Assembly: GCA_937885465.1 (NCBI GenBank)
Contig: CAKZZM010000154.1
Span: forward strand, 7,760 to 71,759
Length of the DNA stretch: 64,000 nucleotides
Reading direction: 5' to 3'
Origin: an uncultured Bacteroidales bacterium
GTDB lineage: Bacteria; Bacteroidota; Bacteroidia; Bacteroidales; Paludibacteraceae
Shown here: positions 11,236 through 58,035 of the stretch, one piece after another
Numbering within the stretch: position 1 is the first letter of the stretch
Layout of the letters: every line of letters starts with the position of its first letter
Notes under the pieces: model-generated
Told to the model about the DNA's origin: nothing
The model's database searches: none
Seen by the model: the letters and a program-made list of their open reading frames with translations, nothing else
Translations under genes and position numbers: made by a program

Positions 11236-11250
11236 ATAATGTGATTATGT

Positions 11251-12555: not shown

Positions 12556-12563
12556 ACGAGAAG

Positions 12564-12612: not shown

Positions 12613-12638
12613 CAAGAAAAATAAAAAAACAAAACAAT

Positions 12639-13868: not shown

Positions 13869-14020
13869 TCCGGAGGGTCCGGAGATTCCGGAAAGTCCGA
13901 AAAGTCCGGAGATTCCGGAAAGTCCGGAAAGTCCGGAAAGTCCGAAAAGTCCGGAAAGTCCGAAGATTCCGGAAAGTCCGAAGATTCCGGAAAGTCCGAA
14001 CGCTCGGAGGCGTTCTCCAC
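13869..14020. repeat. 15 tandem 9-nt units (TCCGGAAAG and variants, 13869-14003) running into an inverted RepA (13998-14020)
   Basis: Units counted one by one. The array starts at the base after the gatZ-like stop codon and ends 10 nt before the esterase ATG. Confidence 0.95.
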
Positions 14021-14029
14021 TATTCTGAT

Positions 14030-15430: not shown

Positions 15431-15432
15431 CC

Positions 15433-16410
15433 ATGAAGCAGTTTGATATCATCGCCTTAGGCGAGTTGAATGTGGATTTGATACTCAATCAGATAGATGG
15501 TTTTCCTGAAGTAGGTAAGGAGAAATTTTTGAAGCAGATGACCCTGACCTTAGGTAGCAGTACCGCTATCTTTGCTGCCAATGCCGCTGCCTTAGGTGCC
15601 AAGGTGGCGTTCTGCGGAATGATAGGCAACGATAGTTTCGGCGACCTCGTAGAAACAAGTCTGCAAAAGAAAGGTGTGGACACTCGTTTCCTTATTCGGC
15701 AAGATAAGTACGCCACGGGGGCAACAATATGCATGAGTTATGACGAGGATCGTGCCAATCTTACCTATCAAGGGGCAATGGACTATATGTCGCTCGCAGA
15801 TATTAACCCCGAAGTGTTTAAGGTGGCGAAACATATTCATATATCATCCATCTTTATGCAAAGCGGCATACGCCGCGATATTGTGAAGATTCTCAATATC
15901 TGCAAAGAGAATGGCATCACCACCTCGCTCGACAGTCAGTGGGATCCGACCGAGAAGTGGGACATTAACCTGCAAGAAGTACTGCCACTCGTTACTTTAT
16001 TTATGCCCAACGAGACCGAACTGAAGTTCCTTACGAAGAGTGAGACTTTAGAAGAAGCGATAGAGAAAATTCGTCCATATACCAACGCTGCTGTTATAAA
16101 GTGTGGCAGCCGCGGCTCGATACTTATTCGTAAGGGTGAATTGCGGGACTCAGGAGAGCTTCAAACCTTTCCTGACAGAGTGCAAGAGGCGTTGCTTAAC
16201 ACTAATGTGGTGGATTGTATCGGTGCAGGTGACTCGTTCAATGCAGGGTTTATCGCTCGTTTCGCGGCAGGCGATGCCCTTGACCTGTGTCAGCAGTACG
16301 GCAATATGACCGGTGCTGTGAACACTACCGCCGCAGGCGGAACAGCAGCCTTCACCTCACGAGAGGAAGTAGAACGCATCGGACGAGAACGATTTGGCTG
16401 GGAGAAATAG
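15433..16410 (+). CDS. PfkB (ribokinase) family sugar kinase
   Basis: 325 aa. N-terminal GELNVDL and C-terminal VVDCIGAGDSFNAGF (PfkB signature 2). The start is 2 nt after the esterase stop. Confidence 0.85.
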   Translation: MKQFDIIALGELNVDLILNQIDGFPEVGKEKFLKQMTLTLGSSTAIFAANAAALGAKVAFCGMIGNDSFGDLVETSLQKKGVDTRFLIRQDKYATGATICMSYDEDRANLTYQGAMDYMSLADINPEVFKVAKHIHISSIFMQSGIRRDIVKILNICKENGITTSLDSQWDPTEKWDINLQEVLPLVTLFMPNETELKFLTKSETLEEAIEKIRPYTNAAVIKCGSRGSILIRKGELRDSGELQTFPDRVQEALLNTNVVDCIGAGDSFNAGFIARFAAGDALDLCQQYGNMTGAVNTTAAGGTAAFTSREEVERIGRERFGWEK

Positions 16411-16431
16411 TGGAGAACGTCTCCGAACGTT
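16410..16431 (+). repeat. RepA copy whose TAG provides the pfkB stop codon
   Basis: GAG AAA TAG TGGAGAACGTCTCCGAACGTT. The TAG at 16408-16410 is the 5-prime TAG of the extended RepA consensus. Confidence 0.9.
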
Positions 16432-16509
16432 TGGTAGTAGCGTTGTCAATTACGCCGAATATTATTCGGCAGCCCCTTCATAAATAGCGTAAGCGCTTCG
16501 TAAATAATT

Positions 16510-24200: not shown

Positions 24201-24450
24201 ATTCACTAAGTTTACTGTTAAGAGCGACTGCCTTGAGGTTAATTCCTATACAGCCGACTCGAACGGCAATGCTACTCTTATCAATACAATGCGAGTGAAG
24301 CGTAACACTGCCCACACCGTTCCCTCTGGCTACGAAGACGTGCAGCAGCAGCGCACCATCCGCGACGGCGAGAAGTTCATCCGCGGTGGTCAAATGCTGA
24401 TTCGCAAGGATGGCAAGACCTACAATGTGCTGGGTGAGGTGGTAGAGTAA
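21214..24450 (+). CDS. secreted beta-helix + Big_2 + purple-acid-phosphatase-like metallophosphoesterase with T9SS-like tail, paralogue 3
   Basis: I prefer the ATG at 21214 (MKKLFFLLTLCTAVLCASA signal peptide) over the ORF-track start 21100, which reads through repeat sequence. Ig-like Big_2 segment VTGVSIQQDTLRVIVGQTATFTV...VSWECQD. Motifs MSDSH, PGDF, DGNHD, AHKNIF, QGHDH. Tail FIRGGQMLIRKDGKTYNVLGEVVE. Confidence 0.85.
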   Translation: MKKLFFLLTLCTAVLCASASNKYVRPDGDDSLDGKSWANAFATIQTAVWGVPAGDTVFIAEGTYNQRFSVSDGQTILGGYNAQTGERDIEMYETIIDGTDIGQYLIVKYDGPPTNHILIEGLTLQNAQHDQWGGGAIYLRDNMTVRQCHIRNCRGGTAGAIFIDHNDAATVQAVVSGCIVELCSANGCAAIYNNNGIVENCIVRGCSGKAGAIRNETAAGIVRNCVVHNNTLTGTWPNSAIYNKGLVYNCTVANNHGDQYAGIHSEGMVYNSVFWGNTNPTDFSDPANYINGSNSTHNVADEGFGKSSAYLSLTLSANNTDVAGPNFRNPTNFAGVPADDAQITSMQNADFSLTDASVALLDKAEAASATTTDITGVARPKGTGYDIGAYEYDPDAVTVAVTGVSIQQDTLRVIVGQTATFTVIITPADANNKRVSWECQDATVATIQNGIVTGLREDTTLVSVTTQDGAFTATAVLVVLPVPPVYYPVEVLAADTLYKQADYTVPSYIPFLIAKEAARIDSATAEDVTAIADKIAEMNIAIGNLVNKEEPYNMVANINGDPSMRMAFCWFTNEGITDGVVQLLAMENATADDFETNNGVITITAEATTTPALNYAVATSGIAKAAGIAGNTKFRYVSHKALADNLTAGTTYSWRVGYEGHYSDIARFRTKDAVQGEYSFLYMSDSHIQDAEYVNNAKWCAMAAVQTVPEARFCLFPGDFVETGTKSNSEWEWERWFEESIRPVIMQMPIVPTDGNHDDSENLNYDYHFNTDWGFYSMVQSHKPQFHGITYSFVYGDVLFLVYSLQDWWRASGSSAEGRLSSYLSNDVKNWFNEQIAAHPNTKYRVTLAHKNIFSGSGHSTDDEIPMFRDIMLPILKDCQIDLAIQGHDHCYEVIGPVNPDTRTLVEGAVEDVETVAVNTNTNMTGKQGGTFTTDDGTLYFIGATCGRKRYYPYSRAKMEEKYTTDPSVLYDDNHHDVENYFDLFTGMFGQPGAPSFTKFTVKSDCLEVNSYTADSNGNATLINTMRVKRNTAHTVPSGYEDVQQQRTIRDGEKFIRGGQMLIRKDGKTYNVLGEVVE

Positions 24451-28043: not shown

Positions 28044-28225
28044 GTAGAGAACGCCTCCGAGCGTTCAGACTTAGTGGAGAACGCCTCCGAGCGTTCAGAC
28101 TTTTGACATCTGAACGTTCGGAGACGTTATCCACTGCACTTACCTCTCGTCTTTATAAAGTCGGCATTTAATGCCGACTAAAGTGTATATCTCTCGTCTT
28201 TATAAAGTCGGCATTTAATGCCGAC
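28044..28225. repeat. RepA (28044) - 61-nt long palindromic RepA pair (28074-28134) - RepD x2 (28139-28178, 28186-28225)
   Basis: Read directly between the convergent 26718 and DeoR genes. Confidence 0.95.
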
Positions 28226-28233
28226 TTTAAGTG

Positions 28234-30543: not shown

Positions 30544-32496
30544 ATGAAAAAAGTCTTTTATCTATTATCTTTAACTGTTGCGGTCTTAAGTCTGACTGCG
30601 TGTCAGCCGAAGGCGGATAGTGGTGAACGCCTCCGAGCGTTCGACACCGAACGGCTGATCTGCGCGGAAGCGGATATGCAGGCGTTCCCGTATCAGCAGA
30701 AGGGCTTGCATGTGGTAAAGCAGCAGACGGTACGGAATGTTGACGGCGTGCCGGGATTGCAGGTGATCCAGACGCAGTTCATCAATATAGGCAAGCCTGT
30801 GATGGTCAGAGCCTACGAGCTATGCCGCACAGAAATTGAGCCGAAAGATACAGTTGTATGGTCGCTACAGCCGAGCAGCACGGCGGCACGTATGGACTGG
30901 GTGCTGCCCGTTACGCAGGGATTCAGCAAGCAGAACTACCTTGGCATGAACAACTCCGACTACGGTGGTGGCATACCTGTGGTTGACCTGTGGCAGCGTG
31001 ACGGCGGTGAGGCTATCGGGTTGTTTGAGCCGGTGCTGCGGATGATTTCAATGCCCGTGGAGTGGAAGCGCTATGATAACAAAGTGACGATGGCACTCCG
31101 TTATGATCTGCCGGAATCGGTAGAACTGGCAACTGGTGACACGTTGCGTTGCTATAAGGCGTTCCGCTACAAGCATACGGGTGATTACTTTACCGCCCTG
31201 CGTACGTTCTCGGAGTATATGCAGGCGAACGAAGGGGTGGTGATGAGGCCATCTGAGCCGGAAGCGTTTGAACCCGTTTGGTGTGCGTGGGGATATGGGC
31301 GTCCGTTCAAAATGGATATGGTATTGGGTACGTTGGACAAGGTTGCCGAATTAGGTTTCACTTGGGTGGATATAGACGATGGCTACCAGATTGCGGAGGG
31401 CGACTGGAATACGAACGAGTATTTCCCTGGCGGTGACAAAGATATGCGTCATATAACGGACGAGGTTCACAGGCGCGGTATGAAAGCCAAACTATGGTGG
31501 GCACCATTGGCGGCTGACCCGGATACGAAGTTGGTGAAAGAGCATCCCGAATATCTGCTCAAGACCGAGGAATGGGCACACGAGTATATCACGTGGTGGG
31601 ACAGCTGGTATCTGTCGCCTGTTAATCCGGGTGTAGATGCCTATACGACTGACCTGCTGAAGATGTTTATCGACCGTTGGGGATTCGATGGCTTGAAGAT
31701 TGATGGTCAGCATCTGAACTGCTGTCTGCCCGACTATAACGAGACGTCAGGGCTGAATGACCCTTGGGAGGCGCCCGAGCAGATGCCGACATACTTTGGT
31801 AAGATATACGAGCAGACTCGTGCCATGAAGCCAGATGCTGTTATTCAGGTTTGTCCCTGCGGCTGCGCAGTGAACTATTGGCTGCTGCCGCAGATCAACC
31901 AAGCCGTGGCATCCGACCCGATGAGTTCGCGTCAGGTGCGAATGAAACGCAAGGCTTACGCAGCTATGGCACCGGATCTGGCATACTACGGCGACCATGT
32001 GGAACTGACGGATGGCGGCAATGATTTTGCTTCGCAGATAGGTACGGGTTCGGTTATCGGAACGAAGTTCACGTGGCCGAAGGACAACCCCGACTGGAAC
32101 GAAGGTCCGTTCCTGCTCACGCCGGAGAAAGAACAACTGCTCCGCAAGTGGATGAAGATTTACAAGGAAAATAACCTTGCCCGAGGCGAATACATGAACC
32201 TCTATACGTGGGGTTTCGACTATCCTGAGGCGCATGTGATAAGAGTTGAAAGTCCGGGCAGAGCCCTAAAGTCGAAAGTCGAAAGCGCAGGGGAGGCGAT
32301 GTACTATGCGTTCTATACCGATGATCAACCCTTCAGCGGTATAATAGAGTTACGCGGAATAGAGGCAGGCAAGACTTATACTGCCACAGAGTATGCAGCC
32401 GATGAACCGCGTGAGTTCGAGGTGGACGGCAGCAATCCGAAGATAGAGGTGAACTTCGAGCGGAGTTATCTGCTGAAAGTAGTAGAAAAGTGGTGA
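30544..32496 (+). CDS. alpha-galactosidase-like glycoside hydrolase lipoprotein (clan GH-D, GH36/GH27-like) with two in-frame repeat insertions
   Basis: Lipobox LSLTAC. Catalytic-domain blocks WCAWGYG, FTWVDIDDGYQ, KAKLWWAPL, FDGLKIDGQH. Repeat-encoded SGERLRAF lies just after the lipobox, and VESPGRALKSKVES lies near the C-terminus. Confidence 0.78.
   Translation: MKKVFYLLSLTVAVLSLTACQPKADSGERLRAFDTERLICAEADMQAFPYQQKGLHVVKQQTVRNVDGVPGLQVIQTQFINIGKPVMVRAYELCRTEIEPKDTVVWSLQPSSTAARMDWVLPVTQGFSKQNYLGMNNSDYGGGIPVVDLWQRDGGEAIGLFEPVLRMISMPVEWKRYDNKVTMALRYDLPESVELATGDTLRCYKAFRYKHTGDYFTALRTFSEYMQANEGVVMRPSEPEAFEPVWCAWGYGRPFKMDMVLGTLDKVAELGFTWVDIDDGYQIAEGDWNTNEYFPGGDKDMRHITDEVHRRGMKAKLWWAPLAADPDTKLVKEHPEYLLKTEEWAHEYITWWDSWYLSPVNPGVDAYTTDLLKMFIDRWGFDGLKIDGQHLNCCLPDYNETSGLNDPWEAPEQMPTYFGKIYEQTRAMKPDAVIQVCPCGCAVNYWLLPQINQAVASDPMSSRQVRMKRKAYAAMAPDLAYYGDHVELTDGGNDFASQIGTGSVIGTKFTWPKDNPDWNEGPFLLTPEKEQLLRKWMKIYKENNLARGEYMNLYTWGFDYPEAHVIRVESPGRALKSKVESAGEAMYYAFYTDDQPFSGIIELRGIEAGKTYTATEYAADEPREFEVDGSNPKIEVNFERSYLLKVVEKW
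30620..30642 (+). repeat. RepA (GTGGTGAACGCCTCCGAGCGTTC) in frame, 5 codons after the lipoprotein Cys
   Basis: Translated as SGERLRAF. Confidence 0.9.
32245..32285 (+). repeat. RepG-RepC-RepG unit in frame in the alpha-galactosidase
   Basis: GTTGAAAGTCCGGGCAGAGCCCTAAAGTCGAAAGTCGAAAG is translated as VESPGRALKSKVES. Confidence 0.85.
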
Positions 32497-32573
32497 ACGT
32501 CTCCGAACGTTGCACCTTCGTACATCGTACATTGTCACTTTGTACATTGTACATTGTCACTTTGTACATTGTA
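32490..32573. repeat. RepA variant containing the alpha-galactosidase stop codon, then a TGTACAT heptamer array
   Basis: GTGG-TGA-ACGTCTCCGAACGTT (TGA at 32494-32496), then ...TACATTGTCACTTTGTACATTGTACATTGTCACTTTGTACATTG. Confidence 0.9.
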
Positions 32574-35624: not shown

Positions 35625-37376
35625 ATGAAAACGAAACTTATATCCGTCTTTATAAAGTCGGCATATAATGCCGACAAAAGTCTGAACGTTCTCAGACGTT
35701 CTCCACTAAGTCTGAACGTTCTCAGACGTTCTCCACTATATTTAACCGTGGCATTTGCTATTATGCTTGGTTTCCAGAGTTGCGATCTCGAATACTTCCC
35801 TACTGACGAGTTAAATTCGAGTGGTTTTTTAGCAGACGAATCCGGAGCACAATATGTGATTGACGGTTGTTACGCGATGCTCAAGGAGGAATATGCGTAC
35901 ATTGAGTATGCATCAAGTAATACTTATGTTCGTCATTATATGCAGATGGCAGAGTTTCCTGCGGACAATACCTGCTTATCAGGACGTACAACAGACCCTT
36001 TGTTCCAGGCAACATGCTATACTATGACAGACAATTTGAAGAATGTCGGCCTCTTTTGGTGGGTAGGATACAAAGTAATCTTTACGGCTAATACTATCAT
36101 TGAAAGCTATGCAGAGGGGAAATCCCAAGAGTGTGACCAACTACTTGGTGAGGCATATTTCCTACGCGCTATGTGTCACTTCCAATTAGCCACAATCTTC
36201 TCTAAGCCATATAGCCATGGTCGTGATAATCTTGGCATAGTGCTTCGTACAAGCACAAATACCGAAGAGACTCATCGTGCTACTGTTGGCGAGGTATATG
36301 ACCAGGTTGTAAAAGATTTGCAGAAGGCTGCAAGTCTGATGAACAAATCTCGTGGCAATGCAGGCTATGCTTCCAAGAACGCTGCGTTGGGGCTGCTTAG
36401 TCGAGTATATCTCTACATGGAGGAAAACCAAAAGGTGATTGACGTAATTGCCGAGATGGGCGACCCTATTGCTAATCTTGATCCTGACTACGCCACTTAT
36501 TTTGCCAATGCGCTGAAGAGCAAGGAGACCCTCTTCTGCGTAGCGCACACAACTCTTGAAGACCGCGGTCAAGCAAGCATCGGCAGCATGTACAACAACG
36601 ACCCGAATGGTAAAGGATGGGGAGAGGTGTATGCGAGTGATCCTCTACTTAATCTTTATGAACGTTATCCGGACGATATACGTTTAAGTTATATTAAACC
36701 GCAATATGCAGGTAGCAAGAATATGGTATATTTTTCGATACCTGATGCTACAGGATCAAGTGTTGACTTATGGGCTGATGTAAAAGCAGATAGCGAGGGT
36801 AACTACTGCGAGATTGACGGCAACAAGTACCGCATCAATGATGAATTGGTAAATGGTGAATACACTGCGCATTACGTAACGTATGAAGGTAAGAAATGTA
36901 GTGCGCGTCTGACAAAGACGATGACGCAGCGCAATACGTTTCCAAACTATTTTGTAACCAAATTCGGCTATCAGGACGGCAAGCCGCAATTATCCTCGCC
37001 GGTATTCCTGCGTTGGGGTGAGGTTGTGCTTAATCGTGCTGAGGCTAACGCTAAACTGGGTAATGATGATGCCGCCCTTGCAGACGTTAATGCTATACGT
37101 AGGCGTGCCGGTATTCCCGCAGAAGGAGAGTTTGCTGCCGGCAAGATGCATGGCTACACGTCTGTTTTGGATGTCGTGCTTGACGAACGGCGCATGGAGT
37201 TGGCGTTTGAGGGACACCGAATGTTCGATGTATATCGCAACAAACGCAACATGGATCGCCAATTCGGCGGAGTACATCCGTGGGAGATTGTTAAATACGA
37301 TGATCCAAAGATTCAATATCCTATTCCCTATGGTGAGTGGTCTGTTAGCGGAATACAGCAGAACCCGGGATACTAA
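35625..37376 (+). CDS. SusD/RagB family nutrient-binding lipoprotein with a repeat insertion in the signal-peptide n-region
   Basis: Follows SusC by 52 nt. Lipobox MLGFQSCD. TPR-like body with a typical C-terminal region (LDERRMELAFEGHRMFD). ATG at 35625; the ORF-track start 35616 is a TTG. Confidence 0.9.
   Translation: MKTKLISVFIKSAYNADKSLNVLRRSPLSLNVLRRSPLYLTVAFAIMLGFQSCDLEYFPTDELNSSGFLADESGAQYVIDGCYAMLKEEYAYIEYASSNTYVRHYMQMAEFPADNTCLSGRTTDPLFQATCYTMTDNLKNVGLFWWVGYKVIFTANTIIESYAEGKSQECDQLLGEAYFLRAMCHFQLATIFSKPYSHGRDNLGIVLRTSTNTEETHRATVGEVYDQVVKDLQKAASLMNKSRGNAGYASKNAALGLLSRVYLYMEENQKVIDVIAEMGDPIANLDPDYATYFANALKSKETLFCVAHTTLEDRGQASIGSMYNNDPNGKGWGEVYASDPLLNLYERYPDDIRLSYIKPQYAGSKNMVYFSIPDATGSSVDLWADVKADSEGNYCEIDGNKYRINDELVNGEYTAHYVTYEGKKCSARLTKTMTQRNTFPNYFVTKFGYQDGKPQLSSPVFLRWGEVVLNRAEANAKLGNDDAALADVNAIRRRAGIPAEGEFAAGKMHGYTSVLDVVLDERRMELAFEGHRMFDVYRNKRNMDRQFGGVHPWEIVKYDDPKIQYPIPYGEWSVSGIQQNPGY
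35641..35736. repeat. RepD (35644-35675) + two inverted RepA copies (ending 35706 and 35736; period 30) in codons 6-38 of SusD
   Basis: Translated as SVFIKSAYNADKSLNVLRRSPLSLNVLRRSPL. Confidence 0.92.
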
Positions 37377-40939: not shown

Positions 40940-40955
40940 GTAATTATACAAAATA

Positions 40956-41047
40956 GTGGAAAACGCCTCCGAGCGTTCATATTTCTCGTCTTTATAAAGT
41001 CGGCATTGAATGCCGACATCCGGAGTGGAGAACGTCTCCGAACGTTC
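40956..41047. repeat. RepA (40956, C:G variant) - RepD (40979-41017) - RepA (41025-41047)
   Basis: Read directly. The same A-D-A order occurs at 8358-8449. Confidence 0.95.
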
Positions 41048-41080
41048 AGACTTAATATTAACTCATAAATTATAATCATT

Positions 41081-41701
41081 ATGAAAAAAATTTTACTTTT
41101 TGCTGCTGTGCTTGCAGCCGTTGCTGTTAATGCAAAAGTGATTAATGTTGACCTGAGTGAAGCAACAGAAATGGCATACACCAACTGTTCTGCCACTCCG
41201 ACGTACGCAGATGGCGTTCTCTCCGTAGCATATACGACAGGCAGTTGGGAATGGGCAGGCGTAGAGATTGCCCTTGATAACCTTGATGTTACTTCCGTTG
41301 ACTTTGAATATATGGGAGAGACTGAAGCATGGACAAGTTTTGTCGTTTATCTGCGTGCAGAAGATGGCGCACGTTGGTACGATGATGCGGACGATTTCAG
41401 CATGTCGCATGCCGATTGGTTTAGCAAGACTGAATATGTGCCGACCCGGCTGCTTTGGGATGCATCGGAATACGCTTTAGGCGAAAAACCGTTCATCGCT
41501 CTTGGTTTTATCGCCAACCCGAGTGCCGCTACAACAAGCACTTTTAGTCTCCGCAATGTAAAGCTGACTGTTCCTGGTGATGATGATACGGCTATAGATA
41601 ACGTTCCGGCTCCGGGTAAAGTAACAAAGGTTTTACGTGACGGTACCTGGATGTTCGTCCGCGATGGTAAAACATTTAATGTCCTCGGCGGGCAAATGTA
41701 A
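41081..41701 (+). CDS. small secreted protein with T9SS-like tail
   Basis: Signal peptide MKKILLFAAVLAAVAVNA. Beta-rich body. Tail KVLRDGTWMFVRDGKTFNVLGGQM. Confidence 0.6.
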   Translation: MKKILLFAAVLAAVAVNAKVINVDLSEATEMAYTNCSATPTYADGVLSVAYTTGSWEWAGVEIALDNLDVTSVDFEYMGETEAWTSFVVYLRAEDGARWYDDADDFSMSHADWFSKTEYVPTRLLWDASEYALGEKPFIALGFIANPSAATTSTFSLRNVKLTVPGDDDTAIDNVPAPGKVTKVLRDGTWMFVRDGKTFNVLGGQM

Positions 41702-41770: not shown

Positions 41771-42895
41771 ATGTATCGAGTAAAAATATTACTTTTAGTG
41801 CTTTGTTCAGTGGTGCTTAGCACTATATCTGCTTTAGAACGTTCGGAGACGTTCTCCACTATATCTGCTGCTCCACCGCTTATCTTTAATGGTGATACGC
41901 TGCCGAAGAACACGGATTTTAAGAAGAGTCAGTGCGGCACGTTGAAAACATCTGCCACGATAAGCGAGGTGTCAGGTATTGCATGCTCTCGCCTGACGCC
42001 CGGGTATATATGGATGGAGAGCGATGACTATCGTAATGTCATAGCAACAGACGAAAAAGGGAAGACGCGCTATATGAAACTGCTGTTTCGCGGTCTGCCT
42101 GACAGGTGGGATTGGGAAGATATGTGCGGAGGCGTATATGAGGGAGTAAACTATCTCTTTGTGGGTGCCTTTGGCGATAATAATGAGACAACCGGAAATT
42201 ACTATATTATCTATTTCGAAGAACCGGAGGTGACTTCTTCACAGACGTATATAGTGGATGCCTCGTATATTCATTTTGCCTATCCCGATGGCAAGAAGCA
42301 TAATGCGGAAGCTTTGATGTATGATAATCGTGAGCAAATGCTTTATGTCATAACAAAGGTATATTACGATGTGTGTCAGGTGTTTAGTCTGCCGATGAGT
42401 CATGATTACGGTGAAGAGGAACAGACATTGACATATATTTGTGATTTAGGGTTAAAGTCCGATCTCGGGAGTGACGGGATGCATGGTTTCCATTTAGTGA
42501 CGGCTGCGGATATCTCACCTGATGGCAGGTATATCCTTATCAAGAATCATAATAATAATATTGCCAGTTACTCGTATGTGTTATTGTGGCAAAGGGAAGC
42601 AGATGAGAGCGTGAGCGATGCATTGATGCGCCAGCCTGAGCAGATAGGTTGCTACTCCTACGAGTGGCAGGGTGAGGCGATGTGTTGGCTCGATTCCACC
42701 ACTTTCTATACTACCTCTGACGAAGATTCGGGTGACCCGCCTATCTTTAAGTATGTCAAGACACCGCCGTCGGCGGTTGAAGAAGTGGAGGCATTAGAAG
42801 ATGATAATGCTCGGATAAAGTTGTTGTTTAATAAAGGAAACCTCTATATTCGCAAGAACAACCGACTCTACAGCTTAGATGGTAGAGAGGTTTAA
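41771..42895 (+). CDS. secreted hypothetical protein with T9SS-like tail; RepA inserted in the signal peptide region
   Basis: 374 aa. [36 protein letters not shown]... Tail LLFNKGNLYIRKNNRLYSLDGREV. No confident family. Confidence 0.6.
   Translation: MYRVKILLLVLCSVVLSTISALERSETFSTISAAPPLIFNGDTLPKNTDFKKSQCGTLKTSATISEVSGIACSRLTPGYIWMESDDYRNVIATDEKGKTRYMKLLFRGLPDRWDWEDMCGGVYEGVNYLFVGAFGDNNETTGNYYIIYFEEPEVTSSQTYIVDASYIHFAYPDGKKHNAEALMYDNREQMLYVITKVYYDVCQVFSLPMSHDYGEEEQTLTYICDLGLKSDLGSDGMHGFHLVTAADISPDGRYILIKNHNNNIASYSYVLLWQREADESVSDALMRQPEQIGCYSYEWQGEAMCWLDSTTFYTTSDEDSGDPPIFKYVKTPPSAVEEVEALEDDNARIKLLFNKGNLYIRKNNRLYSLDGREV
41821..41869. repeat. inverted RepA flanked by a 13-bp direct duplication
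   Basis: CACTATATCTGCT (41821-41833) + TTAGAACGTTCGGAGACGTTCTC (41834-41856) + CACTATATCTGCT (41857-41869). Period 36 nt = 12 codons. Confidence 0.9.
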
Positions 42896-42906
42896 TTAGA
42901 ATGTTA

Positions 42907-42988
42907 GTGGAGAACGTCTTAGAACGTTCGGAGACGTTCTCCACTATTTTATCGCGGACGAGCCGTCCGCGTCCCAGACGTTCTCCAC
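42907..42988. repeat. full palindromic RepA (42907-42944) followed by RepF (hairpin GCGGACGagccGTCCGC) ending in a RepA tail
   Basis: GTGGAGAACGTCTTAGAACGTTCGGAGACGTTCTCCAC, then TATTTTATCGCGGACGAGCCGTCCGCGTCCCAGACGTTCTCCAC. The same A-F unit is at 46749-46815. Confidence 0.92.
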
Positions 42989-43093: not shown

Positions 43094-45073
43094 TCAGACG
43101 TTCTCCACTAATGTCATCTCGCAGCGTTGGCAGTCTGTTTCAATGCGGAGGAGAGTATCGGCATGCCGTATATAAGCGGGTGTTTTTTGTTTGCTTGTGG
43201 TCTTCTTTTTTTTGCAGCAGTTCATCTCGTAGAGAATGCAATATTTGCAGGTCATCAATGGCGAGGGGTGAGAGTGGAGAGTGGAGAACGTCTGAGAACG
43301 TTCAATAGTGGAGAACGTCTCTGAACGTTCGGAGACGTTCTCCACTGTTGAGAGACGGTGAAAAACACCGTCTCTACCACGTTCGGAAGTGCTCTCTACA
43401 GAAGACGATGTTTGCTGTGCCTCAGAGCGGCTTTGCGGATGGCATTTCGACACTTGGTACTCAGTGATGAATTTTTCGACTGCTTTCCGGCGCCAATCGT
43501 TAAGTACGGAGGTACGAAGGAAATAGGGCGTTTGCCATTGAATGATGATTTCATCAGCAATAAGCGGTGTCCCGCCGAGTTTGGCTAACTGCTGTCTGAC
43601 TATGGTCTCTGCCCGTTCTGCATTTTCCGCCGCTTCGTGCGATGATTCAAAGTGAGAAGTCGCGGACGAGCCGTCCACGCCCCATTTCGCGGACGAGCCG
43701 TCCACGCCCCAGACGTTCACCACGCGGGAGTGTGCCGTTCTGATAGTTATGTCGAAACCTGCGTTTGTAGCACTGAAAATGATGCTGACGGGCAGGAGTC
43801 GCACAGCAGCATTATTCTGCATCAGAGTGCGGTTGAATTCTGCATCGAAGTTTCGGTAAACAGGTGTTCCCTCTTTTATCTTACCCATACCGTTGCTTGT
43901 GGAGAACGTCTGAGAACGTTCGGAGACGTTCTCCACTAATAAGTCTGAACGTTCAGAGACGTTCGCTACTGCACTCGAACGTTTAGAGACGTTCGCCACT
44001 GCGCTCGAACGTTCAGAGACGTTCGCCACTGCTGACCAGTAGCAGCCTTGTCCGTTGAAGGTCAGGCCATCGCCGTTGTGCATTGTTTTGCCGCGCAGCA
44101 AGCCTTGTGGTAGTGGGGCATAGCCTATTAGTTCGCCGGTGGATTTGGGCGTTTGTCGATTGACGAGGTTGTGGGGGCGTTCAAGCGAGAAGTATTCGGT
44201 GGAGCCGCGGTGGAAGGTCTTGACGGGGTCGGGCGTGAAGTTGAGTATTACTCGTCCGCGTGAGGTGCGGCTGACCCCGATGTCGTTGAGCAGTAAGTTG
44301 TAGTAGGCGGTGATATTTTTCACATAATCGATATCTTTCAAACGCCCCTCTATCTTAAGTGTTGTAACGCCTGTATCAAGCAGTTCTCTAAGATGGGCGG
44401 AGCGGTCGAGGTCGTAGAGCGAGAGTATATGTTGCTCTTTGGCAATCACTTTTTTGTCTTTGTCAAGTATGTCGTATGGCAGTCGGCACATCTGTGCACA
44501 TTCGCCTCTATTGGCTGACCTGCCGCATACTGCTTCGCTGAGGTAGCATATGCCCGAATAGCAGACGCATAAGGCACCATGTACAAACGCCTCTAATTCG
44601 CAGGTGGTGACGGCGCGTATCTCTGCCATCTGTTGGTACGATAGTTCTCGTGCAAGTACCACTCTGCTGAAGCCGAGTTGCTCAAGTGCCTGCACCTTCT
44701 CTGCCGTGCGGTTGTCGCATTGGGTGGAAGCATGAAGGCGAAAACCGGCTTGCAATAGTGTTTGAGCAAGGCGCATATCTTGAACAATAAGGGCATATAC
44801 TCCCGCTTCTCTGCATTGATACGCTATGCTCACTGCCTCGCCATACTCGTCTTCGCGCAGTAAAGTGTTGAGAGTAACTAATACTCTTGCATCCCAAAAA
44901 GAGGCATAGCGGACTAACTCCGCTATGTCCTCTATGCTGTTCCCCGCTGCTTTTCTTGCGCCGAAGGCGGGGCCACCTATATAAACGGCATCTGCACCGG
45001 CATCAATAGCAGCCTTGCCGACGGTTACATTCTTAGCCGGTGCGAGCAGTTCGATTTGTTTATCTCCTATCAC
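43094..45073 (-). CDS. peptidase U32 family protein carrying several in-frame repeat insertions
   Basis: GTG start at 45073 overlapping the flotillin stop. The N-terminal 330 aa are clearly U32 (IELLAPAKN...AGADAVYIGGPAFGARK...VHGALCVCYSGICYLS...CAQMCRLPY). Repeat-encoded stretches are listed below. The stop codon lies inside a RepA variant. Confidence 0.8.
   Translation of the reverse strand: MIGDKQIELLAPAKNVTVGKAAIDAGADAVYIGGPAFGARKAAGNSIEDIAELVRYASFWDARVLVTLNTLLREDEYGEAVSIAYQCREAGVYALIVQDMRLAQTLLQAGFRLHASTQCDNRTAEKVQALEQLGFSRVVLARELSYQQMAEIRAVTTCELEAFVHGALCVCYSGICYLSEAVCGRSANRGECAQMCRLPYDILDKDKKVIAKEQHILSLYDLDRSAHLRELLDTGVTTLKIEGRLKDIDYVKNITAYYNLLLNDIGVSRTSRGRVILNFTPDPVKTFHRGSTEYFSLERPHNLVNRQTPKSTGELIGYAPLPQGLLRGKTMHNGDGLTFNGQGCYWSAVANVSERSSAVANVSKRSSAVANVSERSDLLVENVSERSQTFSTSNGMGKIKEGTPVYRNFDAEFNRTLMQNNAAVRLLPVSIIFSATNAGFDITIRTAHSRVVNVWGVDGSSAKWGVDGSSATSHFESSHEAAENAERAETIVRQQLAKLGGTPLIADEIIIQWQTPYFLRTSVLNDWRRKAVEKFITEYQVSKCHPQSRSEAQQTSSSVESTSERGRDGVFHRLSTVENVSERSETFSTIERSQTFSTLHSHPSPLMTCKYCILYEMNCCKKKKTTSKQKTPAYIRHADTLLRIETDCQRCEMTLVENV
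43273..43380. repeat. RepA x3 + RepB inside the 3-prime part of the U32 gene
   Basis: RepA at 43281 and 43308, inverted tail to 43345, RepB 43346-43380. Encodes (minus strand) [33 protein letters not shown]. Confidence 0.9.
43659..43723. repeat. RepF x2 in tandem inside the U32 gene
   Basis: CGCGGACGAGCCGTCCACGCCCCA twice. Encodes WGVDGSSAKWGVDGSSA on the minus strand. Confidence 0.85.
43899..44030. repeat. five RepA-derived units inside the U32 gene, three of them as a 30-nt tandem array
   Basis: Encodes [47 protein letters not shown] on the minus strand. Confidence 0.9.
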
Positions 45074-46690: not shown

Positions 46691-46815
46691 GTGAAGCTCT
46701 CCTATGCTTCATGCGAGGCATGGGAGTGCCTCGCTACTACAACTACCGGAACGTTCGGAGACGTTCTCCACTATTTTATCGCGGACGAGCCGTCCGCGTC
46801 CCAGACGTTCTCCAC
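46691..46815. repeat. inverted RepH (46691-46737) - inverted RepA (46749-46771) - RepF (to 46815)
   Basis: Read directly upstream of smpB. This sequence explains the spurious 5-prime extension of the ORF-track entry 46704..47309. Confidence 0.9.
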
Positions 46816-46856: not shown

Positions 46857-47309
46857 ATGCTTCCGTCATCAAAAGTAAATATTAGAAATAAGCGTGCCTT
46901 TTTTGACTATGAGGTACTTGAGCGTTATACTGCCGGTCTCCAACTATTCGGTACGGAGATTAAGTCGATACGCGAGAGCAAGGCTTCGCTTGCTGACACT
47001 TACTGTTCGTTCGAAGGCAGTGAGTTATGGGTGAGAGGTATGCATATAGCGCAATATGCCTTCGGGTCGTATAATAACCATGAGGCGAAGCGGAACAGGA
47101 AACTGCTTCTTAACAAAAGAGAGTTAAGGAAGTTGGAAAAGGCAGTAAAAGATACGGGGAAGACTATCATTCCGCTGTCGCTTTTTATTAATGAGAAAGG
47201 ACTTGCCAAATTGGAGATTGCCCTTTGTCAGGGCAAGCATACCTACGATAAGCGTCAGGCTCTGAGAGAGAAAGACGATAGGCGAGAAATGGTGGAAAGT
47301 GGATGGTAG
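46857..47309 (+). CDS. smpB: SsrA-binding protein SmpB
   Basis: 150 aa from the ATG at 46857. [29 protein letters not shown] and [19 protein letters not shown] are canonical SmpB blocks. Confidence 0.93.
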
Positions 47310-47335
47310 AGACGGTCTTTTCGACCGTCTCTCAA
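47305..47335 (+). repeat. RepB hairpin containing the smpB stop codon
   Basis: GGTAGAGACGGTCTTTTCGACCGTCTCTCAA. The TAG at 47307-47309 is the smpB stop. Confidence 0.92.
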
Positions 47336-47371
47336 AGAAGTCGAAAGTTACAGTAAATAGAAAATAAATAT

Positions 47372-48898: not shown

Positions 48899-48914
48899 CA
48901 GGTCTAATTTGTCC

Positions 48915-48968
48915 TTTGTACATTGTACATTGTCCATTTGTACATTGTACATTGTCCCTTTGTACATA
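48915..48968. repeat. TGTACAT-based tandem repeat (22-nt unit TTTGTACATTGTACATTGTCCN, about 2.4 copies)
   Basis: Read directly after the gpmI stop. Confidence 0.85.
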
Positions 48969-48973: not shown

Positions 48974-49252
48974 ATGCGTCGATTAGATAAATACTCAGTA
49001 GGAATAGTGCTTGGCTTGCTATTGCCGGCACTGTTCTGCTATGTATATATATCGAGGTTTAATCTGTGGGGTGTATTGAAAGCATTTGACTTCTCCGCCA
49101 ACAGTGTGCTGAGCAAAATGATGATGCTATCGGTGTTTCCTAATATGGCGCTGCTCTTTCTCTTTTATGAGATGGACCTATGGCGTTTGGCGAAGGGAGT
49201 GTTGATAGGTGCCTTCCCGTATATTATTGCTGCTATTTGGTTTACTATATGA
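48974..49252 (+). CDS. small membrane protein (92 aa, about 3 TM), translationally coupled to lpxB
   Basis: MRRLDKYSVGIVLGLLLPALFCYVYI... Its stop overlaps the lpxB ATG (ATGA at 49249-49252). The ORF-track start 48923 lies in the tandem repeat. Confidence 0.5.
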   Translation: MRRLDKYSVGIVLGLLLPALFCYVYISRFNLWGVLKAFDFSANSVLSKMMMLSVFPNMALLFLFYEMDLWRLAKGVLIGAFPYIIAAIWFTI

Positions 49253-50673
49253 CGGTATTCCTTATAGCAGGTGAGGCATCGGGCGACACGCATGCTGCCC
49301 GACTGATGCAGGCAATGAAAGTATTGCAAAGCGATATCCGCTTTGTCGGATTAGGCGGTGATGCGATGAGACGCGAGGGAGCGGTGCTCTATCAAGACTA
49401 CCGTGAGATGGCTTTTATGGGGATATTTGCCGTGCTGAGCAATTTGAGTAAGGTGAGGCGTAATTTCAAGATTGCCCGCGAAGCACTGCTGAAAGAGAAG
49501 CCGGATGTGCTGATATTGATTGATTATCCCTCGTTTAACCTGCGGATGGCGCAGTTCTGCCGTGAGCATCTGCCTGCTACTCGTATCGTCTATTATATCC
49601 CGCCCAAAGTATGGGCATGGAAGCGCTGGAGAGTACATAAGATTGCTCGTCTGTGTGACGAGGTGTTAGGTATATTCCCTTTCGAACCGGATTTTTACTC
49701 GCGATATGGTTACAAATGTACTTATATAGGCAATCCTACAGTGGAGGAGGTAACGAGTACAGAGTGGAGAACGTCTGAGAACGTTCAAAAAAAGGCGGAG
49801 AGGGCAGGGGAAGAAAGCGATTTAGCGAACGGCAATTCGAGAATTATCGCTGTTCTGCCGGGCTCTCGGCGAAGTGAGATAGAACATTGTCTGCGAAAAA
49901 TGGTTGAAGCCGCACAATTGGCAGCACCCGGTTATGATATTGTTGTGGCAGGTGCTGAGGGGCAAAGCAGAGAATTATATGAGCAACAACTAAAAATATC
50001 CGGGGGGTTGGACCCCTCCGCTCCGTCAAGAGACAGTGGAGAACGTCTGAGAACGTCTGGCGGTAGATACGGTGGAAAACACCATCTCTCAAATAGTGGA
50101 GAACGTCTGAGAACGTCTGGCGACTCTGCACCAAAGGTGAGGGTGGTGTTTGGCAGTACTCATGATATATTAAGGCAGGCGGACGCTGCTATTATCAATT
50201 CGGGAACGGCAACGCTTGAGGGTGCATTGCTAAGGTGTCCGCAGGTGGCTGTATATCATATCGCTGTGCCTCACGCTATATTATTTAGCAGGTTGTTGTT
50301 CAGCAGTCCGTATTTTACTCTGCCTAATATCCTGCTTCAGAGAGAGGTAATCTCGGAACTGATAGGTTACCGATTTACGGTTCAGCGAACGGCAGATGAA
50401 CTGAGGAAACTATTGCAAACTGATGAAAGACAGTGGCGAATGTCAGAGAACGTTCATAACTCTCGTCTTTATAATGTCGGCATTAAATGCCGACGTTTGG
50501 AGCGGAGCTCGTCTGAGAACGTTCAAAAAGAGTCCTCCGCTCCTTTCGGGACCGGCGAGACCGAGAGCGCGAGACAAAGGCAATTGCAAGGCTATGAAGA
50601 GATAGCAAATATGCTTGGAAAGCAAAACGCCGCGGAGACTGCTGCAAAAATTATACTGAAACATCGAGAGTGA
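49249..50673 (+). CDS. lpxB: lipid-A-disaccharide synthase LpxB with three in-frame repeat insertions
   Basis: Collinear with E. coli LpxB as I recall it: IAGEASGD, DYPSFNLR, IPPKVWAWKRWR, LPGSRRSEI, SGTATLE, LPNILL. It is 474 aa versus about 380 for typical LpxB. The excess maps to RepA/RepB/RepD sequence. Confidence 0.85.
   Translation: MTVFLIAGEASGDTHAARLMQAMKVLQSDIRFVGLGGDAMRREGAVLYQDYREMAFMGIFAVLSNLSKVRRNFKIAREALLKEKPDVLILIDYPSFNLRMAQFCREHLPATRIVYYIPPKVWAWKRWRVHKIARLCDEVLGIFPFEPDFYSRYGYKCTYIGNPTVEEVTSTEWRTSENVQKKAERAGEESDLANGNSRIIAVLPGSRRSEIEHCLRKMVEAAQLAAPGYDIVVAGAEGQSRELYEQQLKISGGLDPSAPSRDSGERLRTSGGRYGGKHHLSNSGERLRTSGDSAPKVRVVFGSTHDILRQADAAIINSGTATLEGALLRCPQVAVYHIAVPHAILFSRLLFSSPYFTLPNILLQREVISELIGYRFTVQRTADELRKLLQTDERQWRMSENVHNSRLYNVGIKCRRLERSSSENVQKESSAPFGTGETESARQRQLQGYEEIANMLGKQNAAETAAKIILKHRE
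49764..49786 (+). repeat. RepA (loop variant CTGAGA; 5-prime TAG changed to GAG) in frame in lpxB
   Basis: GAG TGG AGA ACG TCT GAG AAC GTT CAA = EWRTSENVQ. Confidence 0.92.
50036..50117 (+). repeat. RepA-RepB-RepA composite module in frame in lpxB
   Basis: Translated as [29 protein letters not shown]. It is near-collinear with the module at 17827-17909, including the junction GAACGTCTGGCGGTAGA. Confidence 0.92.
50431..50527 (+). repeat. degenerate RepA - RepD - degenerate RepA in frame in lpxB
   Basis: CAGTGGCGAATGTCAGAGAACGTTC + TCTCGTCTTTATAATGTCGGCATTAAATGCCGAC + ...GTCTGAGAACGTTC. Translated as QWRMSENVHNSRLYNVGIKCRRLERSSSENVQ. Confidence 0.88.
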
Positions 50674-51822: not shown

Positions 51823-51947
51823 AAGTTGAAAGTGCGGGCAGAGCCCTAAAGTAGATGGTAGAGATGGTCTTTTCGACCGTCTCTCAAGGAAGTCAGGGCG
51901 GATTCCTAAAGTGGATGGTAGAGACGGTCTTTTCGACCGTCTCTCAA
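51786..51947. repeat. RepG heptamers (GAAAGTT x4) - RepC - RepB (51857-51887) - RepC-like - RepB (51917-51947)
   Basis: Read directly. One RepB copy has a G:T wobble (GAGATGGTC/GACCGTCTC). Confidence 0.92.
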
Positions 51948-51970
51948 AGAAGTAGAAATACGCTAATAGA

Positions 51971-57856: not shown

Positions 57857-58035
57857 GTAGAAAGTCGATAGTAAAAAGTCGATAGTAAAAGTCGAAAGCC
57901 CCGCAAACGCAAATCGTGTTCCGGCTTTCGACTTTCTTAATAGTGGAGAACGTCTCCGAACGTTCAAACTTTCAACTTTCAAACTTTCAACTTTCAACTT
58001 TCGGCTTTCAACTTTCAACTTTCAACTTTCAACTT
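57857..58035. repeat. RepG words and hairpin (57891-57932), RepA (57943-57965), then about 10 tandem heptamers ACTTTCA
   Basis: Read directly. GTCGAAAGCC...GGCTTTCGAC forms a 10-bp stem after the TonB stop. Confidence 0.9.

What the first reader, a model, noticed from the sequence alone, without database searches (positions are those of the whole stretch)
41821..41869. Insertion footprint: a 13-bp direct duplication flanks a RepA unit, giving a 36-nt in-frame insertion in a signal peptide
CACTATATCTGCT (41821-41833) is repeated exactly at 41857-41869, with TTAGAACGTTCGGAGACGTTCTC in between. The protein reads ...[21 protein letters not shown], so STISA is duplicated around the insert. This is the clearest candidate target-site duplication in the window. 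One caveat: CACTAT is also the usual 3-prime extension of inverted RepA (…GTTCTCCACTAT), so part of the right copy may belong to the element. In that case the event may be a template switch or microhomology-mediated insertion at a pre-existing CACTAT rather than a classical transposition duplication.
Basis: seen in the sequence. Interest (0 to 1): 0.65.

Follow-up and report, generated by a model that had tools for sequence, protein, structure and literature searches.

The report
Repeat-unit insertion at a signal-peptide site
A 24-base hairpin repeat that litters this uncultured gut/bioreactor bacterium's genome was copied in frame into the signal-peptide end of a secreted protein gene, and the 13-base "duplication" around it looks like the scar of a homology-guided copying accident, not a transposon footprint.

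Summary
CACTATATCTGCT occurs exactly twice, at 41821-33 and 41857-69, around TTAGAACGTTCGGAGACGTTCTC. This adds 36 nt ([12 protein letters not shown]) to a 374-aa secreted beta-propeller gene. All homologs at 67% identity or less lack the 12 residues. Four independent assemblies of the same species carry the insertion unchanged.

It is not a family-wide target-site duplication. Of 272 solitary copies of the repeat (617 copies in 0.88 Mb), this is the only one with a flanking direct repeat of 10 nt or more that is not itself repeat-family sequence. No CACT target preference is seen upstream. CACT(AT) is the repeat's own conserved 3' tail, so the right 13-mer is 4-6 nt of element plus 7-9 nt of re-copied target.

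The target already carried CACTAT, which points to a homology-guided event such as a template switch or short-tract conversion. Strain comparisons show repeat modules moving this way. I found 27-, 33-, 60- and 69-nt gains or losses bounded by shared repeat sequence, and a conversion tract linking this copy to the one 1 kb downstream.

The wider context matters more. This is an undescribed REP-like repeat system in a Paludibacteraceae bacterium, at about 1 copy per kb. Roughly a third of window copies lie in frame inside genes, including lpxB.

The parts
41771..42895 (+). Host gene: secreted beta-propeller protein of 374 aa with no Pfam family. Residues 1-21 form an N-terminal signal peptide, MYRVK / ILLLVLCSVVL / STISA.
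   Evidence: ORF. 435 homologs in Paludibacteraceae MAGs. No Pfam hit. AF2 model with pLDDT 87 shows helix 2-25 followed by a propeller. Foldseek finds NHL/YjiK-like propellers.
41821..41833 (+). Left copy of the 13-mer CACTATATCTGCT. These are probably the native codons for (S)TISA, the signal-peptidase A-x-A region.
   Evidence: Homologs end their signal peptides the same way, for example P0118 ...PLSISAAPKLVYNGDTL.
41834..41862 (+). Inserted repeat unit with its usual extension: TTA + GAACGTTCGGAGACGTTCTCCACT + AT. The hairpin AGAACGT/ACGTTCT lies at 41836-41855 and the 3' tail CCACT(AT) follows.
   Evidence: Zero mismatches to the family consensus. Folding gives -5.6 kcal/mol, z = -3.0. 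The 29-mer is identical to 42919-42947.
41857..41869 (+). Right copy of the 13-mer. The first 4-6 nt (CACT/AT) are the element's tail and the last 7-9 nt (ATCTGCT) are re-copied target.
41810..41826 (+). Small native hairpin GTGGTGC-TTA-GCACTAT ending in the target CACTAT. It is a possible polymerase pause site just before the junction.
   Evidence: Terminator-like scan. Its role is inference only.
42904..42947 (.). Inverted doublet of the repeat just after the stop codon. Its right arm, 42919-42947, is the same 29-mer as the intragenic copy. The locus is allelic between strains.
   Evidence: The window and L001 have TTAG..GG..CACTAT. L118 and L119 have TGAG..TC..CACAAT, which forms a perfect 38-nt palindrome.

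Best explanation
This is a one-off, homology-guided templated insertion, not a transposition. The unit is 24 nt: a 6-7-bp hairpin, GAACGT-TCGGAG-ACGTTC, plus a conserved 3' tail, TCCACT(AT).

The native signal-peptide codons already contained CACTAT (...AGC ACT ATA TCT GCT...), which matches that tail. During replication or repair, a DNA 3' end at this site paired through the 6-nt CACTAT/ATAGTG match with a RepA copy elsewhere, probably nearby. It copied about 23 nt of the unit, as far as the hairpin apex of a doublet, then returned to the original template 7-13 nt behind the point where it had left.

The product is A-B-A. The 13-nt 'duplication' is therefore 6 nt of shared microhomology plus 7 nt of re-copied target, a net gain of 36 nt. 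The allele survived because 36 is a multiple of 3 and because the 12 extra residues fall in the flexible stretch at or just after the signal-peptidase site. The first STISA site is intact, so export should still work.

Shown: the insertion is real, lineage-specific and fixed in all sampled strains; CACT(AT) belongs to the element; no family-wide TSD exists; RepA modules are gained, lost and converted between strains through short shared sequence.

Inferred: the template-switch steps, the identity of the donor, and neutrality for export.
For: (1) The insertion is real. The 36 aligned homologs and the 119 listed hits at 67% identity or less lack it.
(2) The element supplies CACT(AT). Either a 29-nt element landed 7 nt after a pre-existing CACTAT, or a tail-less 23-nt piece landed exactly in front of one. 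In both readings the target CACTAT is a coincidence of about 1 in 4096 unless homology guided the event.
(3) No other solitary copy has a comparable flanking repeat, and CACT is not a general target. A modest excess of short repeats that begin in the tail does exist, and the sequence upstream of those motifs is unrelated to the unit body (31% match). That is the pattern expected from variable microhomology use.
(4) Strain polymorphisms show homology-bounded copying of modules.
  - L118 has a 69-nt module in lpxB copied from a site 0.7 kb away, bounded by a shared CGTCTGAGAACGTTC and AACGTTCAAAAA.
  - L118 and L119 carry a 33-nt unit gain with an adjacent 3-base conversion tract.
  - There are 60- and 69-nt tandem module differences.
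  - L122 has 27-nt unit gains after a stop codon and inside a lipoprotein gene.
(5) The intragenic 29-mer is identical to the copy 1.07 kb downstream. Only 3 of 617 copies share that 29-mer, and that downstream copy differs at 4 clustered positions between strains whose flanks are about 99% identical. The two copies have therefore exchanged sequence.
(6) In the doublet, the shared 29-mer runs from 3 nt before the hairpin apex to the hairpin base.
(7) No transposase lies in the window, and no IS200/RAYT-like ORF was found in 0.88 Mb.
Against: - No empty site at nucleotide level was found. The nearest homolog without the insert is only 67% identical, so the presence of CACTAT in the pre-insertion allele is inferred from the left copy.
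- Only one of the two junctions has microhomology. The other, GCT|TTAG, has 0-2 nt.
- The donor and the direction of exchange with 42919-42947 are unresolved. The L118 allele is a perfect palindrome and may be ancestral, in which case the downstream copy was the recipient, not the donor.
- All observed polymorphic events lie next to existing units. None is a de novo insertion at a naive site, so the mechanism that seeds new sites was not observed directly.
- Only about 0.9 Mb of the genome was searched for a mobilising enzyme, and the search relied on weak sequence tests.
Confidence: 0.5

Rival explanations
1. Classical transposition. A trans-acting transposase made a staggered cut of 7, 9 or 13 bp in the target, inserted a 29-, 27- or 23-nt RepA unit, and gap repair produced a true target-site duplication.
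For: A perfect direct repeat abuts the element, far beyond chance. The family is high-copy and lineage-specific: it is absent from 20 related MAG loci. There is a weak excess of short flanking repeats.
Against: A TSD of fixed length should flank most young copies. Only 1 of 272 solitary copies has one, even though 213 of 617 units are perfect consensus. The unit has no terminal inverted repeats. The match between the target CACTAT and the element tail is left unexplained. No transposase was found in the window or the sampled genome. All 7 strain polymorphisms are homology-bounded rather than TSD-flanked.
Confidence: 0.12
2. RAYT/IS200-IS605-type single-strand mobilisation. An HUH tyrosine transposase recognises the RepA hairpin and tail and cuts after CACT(AT), both at the element end and at a look-alike CACTAT in the target on the lagging-strand template. 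The extra 7 nt come from imprecise repair.
For: The anatomy resembles a REP: a short hairpin plus a conserved single-stranded tail, about 1 copy per kb, frequent inverted doublets, and one compensatory stem change (T6-A13 in 477 copies, C6-G13 in 57). This family makes no TSD, which matches the survey. Bacteroidetes have their own TnpA_Y1 subclass (2.6), flanked by atypical structures (PMC6006769). The target carried the tail motif.
Against: No Y1/HUH ORF was found by tblastn or by subclass motif regex in 0.88 Mb, a sample enriched for RepA neighbourhoods. CACT is not enriched next to other copies. The mechanism does not predict a 7-nt target duplication. A GTAG tag is present in only about a quarter of copies (C at position 26 in 28%).
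Confidence: 0.15
3. Two-step history. Either an out-of-frame RepA insertion (23 or 29 nt) was followed by a compensating 13- or 7-nt duplication that restored the frame, or a former tandem array with a 36-nt period contracted to leave A-B-A.
For: Tandem gain and loss of units is the commonest polymorphism between strains. Selection would favour restoring the frame in a gene that is conserved in more than 400 relatives.
Against: The first step would destroy a secreted protein until rescued. Slippage makes adjacent duplications, not a 7-nt copy placed 29 nt away. No array with a 12-nt spacer of this sequence exists anywhere in 0.88 Mb: the 13-mer has only these 2 copies in the window. Both 13-mers are still identical in four assemblies.
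Confidence: 0.13
4. Not an insertion. The 12 residues are ancestral, or the duplication is a chance or assembly artefact.
For: None beyond the absence of a nucleotide-level empty site.
Against: None of the 36 aligned homologs or the 119 listed hits at 67% identity or less has the segment. The inserted DNA is a perfect copy of a 617-member repeat. The chance expectation is 0.05, with 0 of 100 shuffles reaching 2. Four independent assemblies and two Logan runs agree.
Confidence: 0.02

Closest known systems
REP / REPIN elements of Proteobacteria (with RAYT transposases) and the GTAG/CGTC-tagged palindromic repeats surveyed by Di Nocera et al. 2013 (PMC3733652)
   Same: Units of 20-40 nt made of a short hairpin plus a conserved tail. 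Hundreds of copies per genome. Single units, inverted doublets that fold into long hairpins, and mosaic clusters with other repeat families (BIME-like). No target-site duplication. Some REPs are known inside genes and some supply stop codons.
   Different: No RAYT was found. The tail is (T)CCACT(A), not a GTAG/CGTC tag next to the stem. Roughly a third of the window copies are in frame inside genes, whereas REPs are overwhelmingly extragenic. The phylum is Bacteroidota. The observed dynamics are homology-bounded conversion and tandem gain or loss, not excision and insertion.
Rickettsia palindromic elements (RPE; Ogata/Claverie, cited in PMC3733652)
   Same: Selfish palindromic repeats inserted in frame in functional protein-coding genes, where they add tolerated peptide segments.
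   Different: RPEs are about 100-150 bp. Here the unit is 24-30 nt, or 60-69 nt as a composite module. The density is far higher, and strain-level in-frame length polymorphism is seen.
Small dispersed repeats (SDR4-6) of Nostocaceae (Elhai et al. 2008, Genome Res 18:1484). The paper is not held in the library, so the details here are from memory.
   Same: Units of 21-27 nt. Hundreds of copies in one lineage and none in close relatives. Association with tandem heptamer arrays, as seen here at 57942, L081:5761 and L056:1954. No known transposase.
   Different: Different phylum and sequence. I could not check that paper's statements on insertion footprints, so the resemblance is a lead, not a test.
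Microhomology-mediated template switching (FoSTeS/MMBIR-type, quasipalindrome-associated switches)
   Same: A templated insert copied from elsewhere. One junction has 6-nt microhomology and the other is near-blunt. The return lands a few nt behind the departure point and gives a short flanking duplication. Hairpins lie at the donor and at the target.
   Different: This is a general repair or replication error class, not an element family. Here the donor belongs to a 600+ member repeat family, which makes such events recurrent.

Membership tests
Cut-and-paste/replicative transposon or MITE with target-site duplication | Fixed-length direct duplication of target flanking most copies | tested here: not met
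   Among 272 solitary copies, only 41848 has a non-family flanking repeat of 10 nt or more. The distribution otherwise resembles the shuffled-flank control.
Cut-and-paste/replicative transposon or MITE with target-site duplication | Terminal inverted repeats at the element ends | tested here: not met
   The unit is an internal hairpin (positions 1-6 paired with 13-18) plus an asymmetric 3' tail. There are no TIRs.
Cut-and-paste/replicative transposon or MITE with target-site duplication | Cognate autonomous element or transposase in the genome | tested here: inconclusive
   None in the window. None detected in 0.88 Mb by tblastn or motif search for Y1 enzymes. Other transposase families and the rest of the genome were not searched.
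REP/REPIN-RAYT system | Short imperfect palindrome with a conserved tetranucleotide tag (GTAG or CGTC) at one end | tested here: inconclusive
   The hairpin is present, with one compensatory subfamily change. The conserved tail is CCACT. The reverse-complement GTAG appears only in copies with C at position 26 (28%).
REP/REPIN-RAYT system | High copy number, with inverted doublets forming larger hairpins | tested here: met
   68 copies in 64 kb and 617 in 0.88 Mb. The doublet folds at -16 kcal/mol, z = -7.25.
REP/REPIN-RAYT system | Extragenic location | tested here: not met
   In-frame copies lie inside LpxB, a U32 peptidase, a SIS protein, a metallophosphatase, a melibiase-like lipoprotein and this gene.
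REP/REPIN-RAYT system | Single-copy RAYT gene flanked by the repeats | tested here: inconclusive
   Not found in the sampled 0.88 Mb. A complete genome is not available.
Rickettsia-type protein-coding palindromic elements | In-frame insertion in intact, conserved genes | tested here: met
   LpxB aligns to E. coli LpxB (5W8S) with about 40 extra residues between query residues 245 and 295. Pfam domains are split in the U32 and SIS proteins. Intragenic strain indels are 27, 60 and 69 nt.
Rickettsia-type protein-coding palindromic elements | Element length about 100-150 bp and sequence homology to RPE families | tested here: not met
   The unit is 24-30 nt. No Rfam family matched in the window except a tRNA.
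DNA uptake sequences (USS/DUS) | About 1 per kb in both orientations, with inverted pairs after genes, arising in genes by substitution without length change, and linked to competence machinery | tested here: not met
   Density, orientation and inverted pairs fit, but the intragenic copies are insertions relative to homologs. Competence was not tested.

The most novel reading that the evidence does not exclude
RepA and its companion hairpin modules (families B, C and F, plus tandem heptamers) form a previously undescribed, lineage-specific small-repeat system in an uncultured Paludibacteraceae bacterium. It has no transposase of its own. It spreads and homogenises by short-homology templated copying, and it colonises protein-coding genes in frame at a density not reported for bacteria, essential genes such as lpxB included. 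On this reading, the 41821-41869 site is a preserved snapshot of how a naive site is seeded, through a 6-nt match to the element tail.
Probability: 0.3. Interest if true: 0.75.

Novelty: new variant of a known kind. Interest (0 to 1): 0.55.

Why it matters
How very short bacterial repeats (REPs, SDRs and the like) reach new sites is still poorly understood, because footprints are almost never preserved. This site is a clean, recent and fixed example with both junctions intact. It sits in a genome where the same repeats are visibly being gained, lost and converted between strains that are 98-99.8% identical.

It argues that short-homology copying alone can seed and spread a 24-nt repeat. It also shows that in-frame repeat insertions can be tolerated at a signal-peptidase site, and in essential enzymes such as LpxB.

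The system would be a tractable natural model for the evolution of repeat-driven protein insertions in Bacteroidota. It is also a warning for annotating and binning such MAGs, because short-read contigs break at these repeats.

Tried and rejected
- **Empty site in relatives.** I used the protein search, the 90% cluster members, which are all 374 aa and carry the insert, the contigs that encode them, Logan runs and GTDB genomes. No allele without the insert is closer than 67% amino-acid identity.
- **Presence/absence of RepA in 0.3-0.6% diverged Logan strains over window 1-19000.** None was seen. Contigs break at the repeats, and the only indel is a 14-nt tandem heptamer change.
- **CACTAT or TAG as a general target.** Not enriched.
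- **Decayed upstream units as the source of the left CCACT-like motifs.** Rejected: 31% identity to the unit body.
- **IS200/RAYT enzymes.** tblastn used an IS608 TnpA sequence written from memory and not validated. Two motif regexes used the published HUH/Y signatures. Nothing was found, but this is a weak test.
- **Rfam.** Only a tRNA.
- **Viral contigs.** No copy.
- **Literature.** No paper prints the repeat. The Elhai 2008 SDR paper is not held.
- **L057 and L098, related species from sibling data sets.** They overlap the sampled genome too little to give filled/empty pairs.
- **L120 and L121.** Collinear with the window and uninformative.
Full report
**1. The observation**

The window reads CACTATATCTGCT (41821-41833), TTAGAACGTTCGGAGACGTTCTC (41834-41856), CACTATATCTGCT (41857-41869). 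With up to one mismatch allowed, the 13-mer has only these two matches in 64 kb. The expected count is 0.05, and none of 100 shuffles reaches two. The region lies in ORF 41771-42895 (+, 374 aa), whose N-terminus is [44 protein letters not shown].

**2. What the inserted DNA is**

The core GACGTTCTCCACT (up to 2 mismatches) occurs 68 times in the window on both strands. An exact 24-mer scan of public metagenome contigs returned 96 stretches. Almost all come from one contig series, FLNU01002328-2544, which appears to be the same genome; the window itself seems to be withheld from that collection.

In the window plus these loci (884 kb) there are 617 distinct copies.
- Positions 1-24, GAACGTTCGGAGACGTTCTCCACT, are 77-100% conserved.
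- Position 25 is A in 64% of copies and position 26 is T in 47%. Conservation then fades.
- 213 copies are perfect consensus, and 31% carry the full CACTAT tail.

The unit folds as a 7-8-bp hairpin, AGAACGT(T)...(G)ACGTTCT, followed by a free 3' tail (-5.6 kcal/mol, z = -3.0). Inverted doublets fold at -16 kcal/mol (z = -7.25). Positions 6 and 13 covary: T-A in 477 copies, C-G in 57, C-A in 23, T-G in 10. This keeps either the stem or the dyad symmetry, although it may reflect a single subfamily.

The right-hand 13-mer is therefore not all target.

**3. It is a real, lineage-specific insertion**

The protein has 435 homologs, almost all from rumen and bioreactor Paludibacteraceae MAGs. Apart from a 99%-identical cluster, the best hit is 67% identical. 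In all 119 listed hits at 67% identity or less, the signal peptide runs straight into (A)APPLVYNGDTL. In an alignment with 36 of them, every sequence has a gap where [12 protein letters not shown] sits.

All three members of the 99% cluster are 374 aa and contain the insert. Contigs from three other assemblies (ERZ842383, ERZ922529, ERZ842392) carry the 49 nt base for base. Logan contigs from two bioreactor runs also cover it. The repeat core is absent from the 20 orthologous loci of related MAGs, each about 11-21 kb, and those loci contain almost no repeated 14-mers (0-2% against 4.4% here). The repeat family and this insertion arose in this lineage and predate the split of the sampled strains.

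An AlphaFold model (pLDDT 87) shows an N-terminal helix (residues 2-25), a low-confidence stretch (residues 21-30, mean pLDDT 50) and a beta-propeller from about residue 37. The propeller resembles NHL/YjiK-type propellers. The insert therefore lies in the flexible segment at the A-x-A cleavage motif. The first STISA is intact, so I infer (this was not tested) that export still works and the insert is near-neutral.

**4. Is the 13-mer a target-site duplication?**

Among 272 solitary copies (no other unit within 40 nt), I looked for exact direct repeats whose left copy ends within 8 nt of the unit and whose right copy starts in or just after the tail.
- Only this copy has a repeat of 10 nt or more that is not itself part of another repeat family or array.
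- A mismatch-tolerant test gave the same answer. The other high scorers are units sitting inside tandem 7-9-mer arrays.
- CACT is not enriched in the 20 nt upstream: 23 of 272, against 18 and 23 in two controls.

There is therefore no family-wide TSD and no general CACTAT target.

A weaker signal does exist. Repeats of 7 nt or more that begin in the element tail and recur just upstream are seen 17 times against 6.75 +/- 2.1 expected, and no permutation of 300 reaches 17. The sequence upstream of those left-hand motifs is unrelated to the unit body (31% identity), so they are not decayed tandem units. In those cases the repeat is mostly the tail itself plus 0-3 nt. The present site, with 7-9 nt of extra target, is the extreme.

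**5. What the strains show about how these repeats move**

Two strain types could be compared with the window.

L118 and L119 (98-99.8% identity) differ as follows:
- (a) an extra 69-nt [RepA + hairpin B] module in tandem at 40955-41048;
- (b) an extra 33-nt unit of a different subfamily at 43086, with three base differences in the adjacent unit, which marks a conversion tract;
- (c) an extra 69 nt in lpxB at 49791 that is a near-exact copy of the module 0.7 kb downstream in the same gene, bounded by a shared CGTCTGAGAACGTTC on the left and AACGTTCAAAAA on the right;
- (d) 60 nt fewer ([hairpin C + RepA]) at 50063-50122.

L122 (the ERZ842383 strain) has an extra 27-nt unit just after the stop codon at 24451 and another inside the lipoprotein gene at 30614-30643, giving 659 aa against 650.

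All three intragenic events (27, 60 and 69 nt) are multiples of three. Every event is bounded by shared repeat sequence, and none is a TSD-flanked insertion at a naive site.

The downstream inverted doublet at 42904-42947 is also allelic. The window and L001 have a right arm identical over 29 nt to the intragenic copy. L118 and L119 differ at four clustered positions and form a perfect 38-nt palindrome. Only 3 of 617 copies share this 29-mer, so the two copies, 1.07 kb apart, have exchanged sequence. The direction is unresolved.

An orthologous unit in a related species (L057 against L040) sits in a block of about 40 identical nt within a 209-nt alignment that is 89% identical overall. This is consistent with homogenisation or constraint.

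**6. Mechanism**

The element's tail matches a hexamer that the target already had. Whether one counts a 29-nt element plus a 7-nt duplication or a 23-nt piece plus a 13-nt duplication, this is a coincidence of about 1 in 4096 unless homology guided the event.

The simplest single-step model is a double template switch, or equivalently a short-tract conversion:
- A 3' end reading ...ATAGTG (bottom strand) pairs with a RepA copy.
- It copies GAGAACGTCTCCGAACGTTCTAA. In a doublet, this runs from the hairpin base to 3 nt beyond the apex.
- It then returns to its own template 13 nt back.

On the top strand, this is the same as leaving after ...ATCTGCT and returning through CACTAT, which re-copies ATCTGCT. 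One junction has 6-nt microhomology and the other has 0-2 nt. The native site also forms a small hairpin ending in CACTAT, which might promote stalling; this is speculative. Selection then kept an allele that is in frame and lies in a tolerant position. I give this 0.5.

The rivals are:
- a RAYT/IS200-like single-strand enzyme that recognises the hairpin and tail (0.15; the anatomy fits, but no enzyme was found and the 7-nt duplication is not predicted);
- a two-step history or array contraction (0.13);
- classical transposition with a TSD (0.12; contradicted by the survey);
- no insertion, or an artefact (0.02).

**7. Wider context and comparison with known systems**

The window is ordinary chromosome: ClpB, DnaK, RecG, SusC/D, LpxB, SmpB, and no transposase. 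Yet about 8% of it consists of 11-mers that occur at least 3 times (5134 of 64000 nt). These belong to RepA, three other hairpin families, and tandem 7-9-mers.

Roughly a third of the window's RepA copies lie in frame inside genes:
- LpxB has three repeat-derived insertions relative to E. coli LpxB, including about 40 residues between query residues 245 and 295.
- The U32 peptidase and the SIS protein have split Pfam matches, and the 902-aa metallophosphatase carries repeat-derived segments that its paralog 21214-24450 lacks.
- The RepA core has no stop codon in five of six frames, read directly from the sequence.

The closest known kinds are these:
- REP/REPIN elements share the hairpin plus tail, the doublets, the mosaics and the lack of a TSD. 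Some REPs are intragenic (PMC3733652), and Bacteroidetes have their own TnpA_Y1 subclass (PMC6006769).
- Rickettsia RPEs share in-frame coding insertions but are 100-150 bp.
- Cyanobacterial SDRs are 21-27 nt, lineage-specific and associated with heptamer arrays. That paper is not held, so this comparison is from memory.

Membership in REP-RAYT fails on extragenic location and is inconclusive on the tag and the enzyme. Membership in TSD-making transposons or MITEs fails on both tested features. No paper in the library prints the repeat, and no viral contig carries it.

**8. Verdict**

The insertion reading is supported. It remains unproven without a nucleotide-level empty site. As a single footprint the finding is moderately interesting. 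As an entry point to an undescribed repeat system that colonises genes in frame in Bacteroidota, it deserves follow-up.

Noticed in passing
window 49180-50673 (lpxB); 43094-44776(-) (U32 peptidase/DUF3656); 11278-12555 (SIS); 16510-19218 (metallophosphatase); 30544-32496 (melibiase-like lipoprotein); 35625-37376 (SusD-like N-terminus): Many other in-frame repeat insertions lie in conserved genes. They encode peptides such as [24 protein letters not shown] and NVRRRSPL. LpxB has three such insertions relative to E. coli LpxB.
   Followed up: partly
window, e.g. 6076-6115, 8391-8433, 28144-28229 (B); 8325-8356, 47302-47348, 51850-51953 (C); 42948-42976, 43660-43718, 46775-46803 (F); 10813-10923, 13883-14000, 32518-32573, 48914-48956, 57962-58035 (tandem 7-9-mers): There are at least three further hairpin repeat families: B = CTCTCGTCTTTATAAAGTCGGCATTTAATGCCGAC, C = GGTAGAGACGGTCTTTTCGACCGTCTCTCAA, F = TATCGCGGACGAGCCGTCCGCGTCCCA. 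Tandem heptamer and nonamer arrays are also present. All of these combine with RepA into 60-69-nt modules.
   Followed up: partly
window 40955-41048, 43086, 49791, 50063-50122, 24451, 30614-30643 versus L118/L119/L122: Strains that are 98-99.8% identical differ by whole repeat modules (27, 33, 60 and 69 nt). All are bounded by shared repeat sequence. The three intragenic ones are multiples of 3.
   Followed up: yes
window 42919-42947 versus L118:11148-11176: Four clustered differences in the doublet's right arm between strains make the window allele identical to the intragenic copy at 41834-41862. This is a short gene-conversion tract of unresolved polarity.
   Followed up: yes
L057:1784-1830 versus L040:104-150: An orthologous RepA unit in a related species lies in a block of about 40 identical nt within a 209-nt alignment that is 89% identical overall. 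This suggests homogenisation or constraint on the units.
   Followed up: no
all RepA and family C copies, e.g. window 41846-41851: RepA and hairpin C both contain GAGACG/CGTCTC, a type IIS (Esp3I/BsmBI-like) recognition sequence. RepA also contains the palindrome GAACGTTC. The significance is unknown.
   Followed up: no
window 41081-41701 and 41771-42895: The upstream 206-aa secreted protein and the beta-propeller are fused into one 524-aa protein in some relatives (P0087, P0119), so the two genes are probably functionally linked.
   Followed up: partly
window 16510-19218, 19416-21131, 21214-24450: Three tandem paralogous purple-acid-phosphatase-like genes. Only the first carries repeat insertions. 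The paralogs are too diverged to define the junctions.
   Followed up: partly
window 6184, 32527, 30436, 48913-48927: Tandem heptamer arrays change length between strains (14-, 22- and 7-nt indels). This happens independently of RepA.
   Followed up: no
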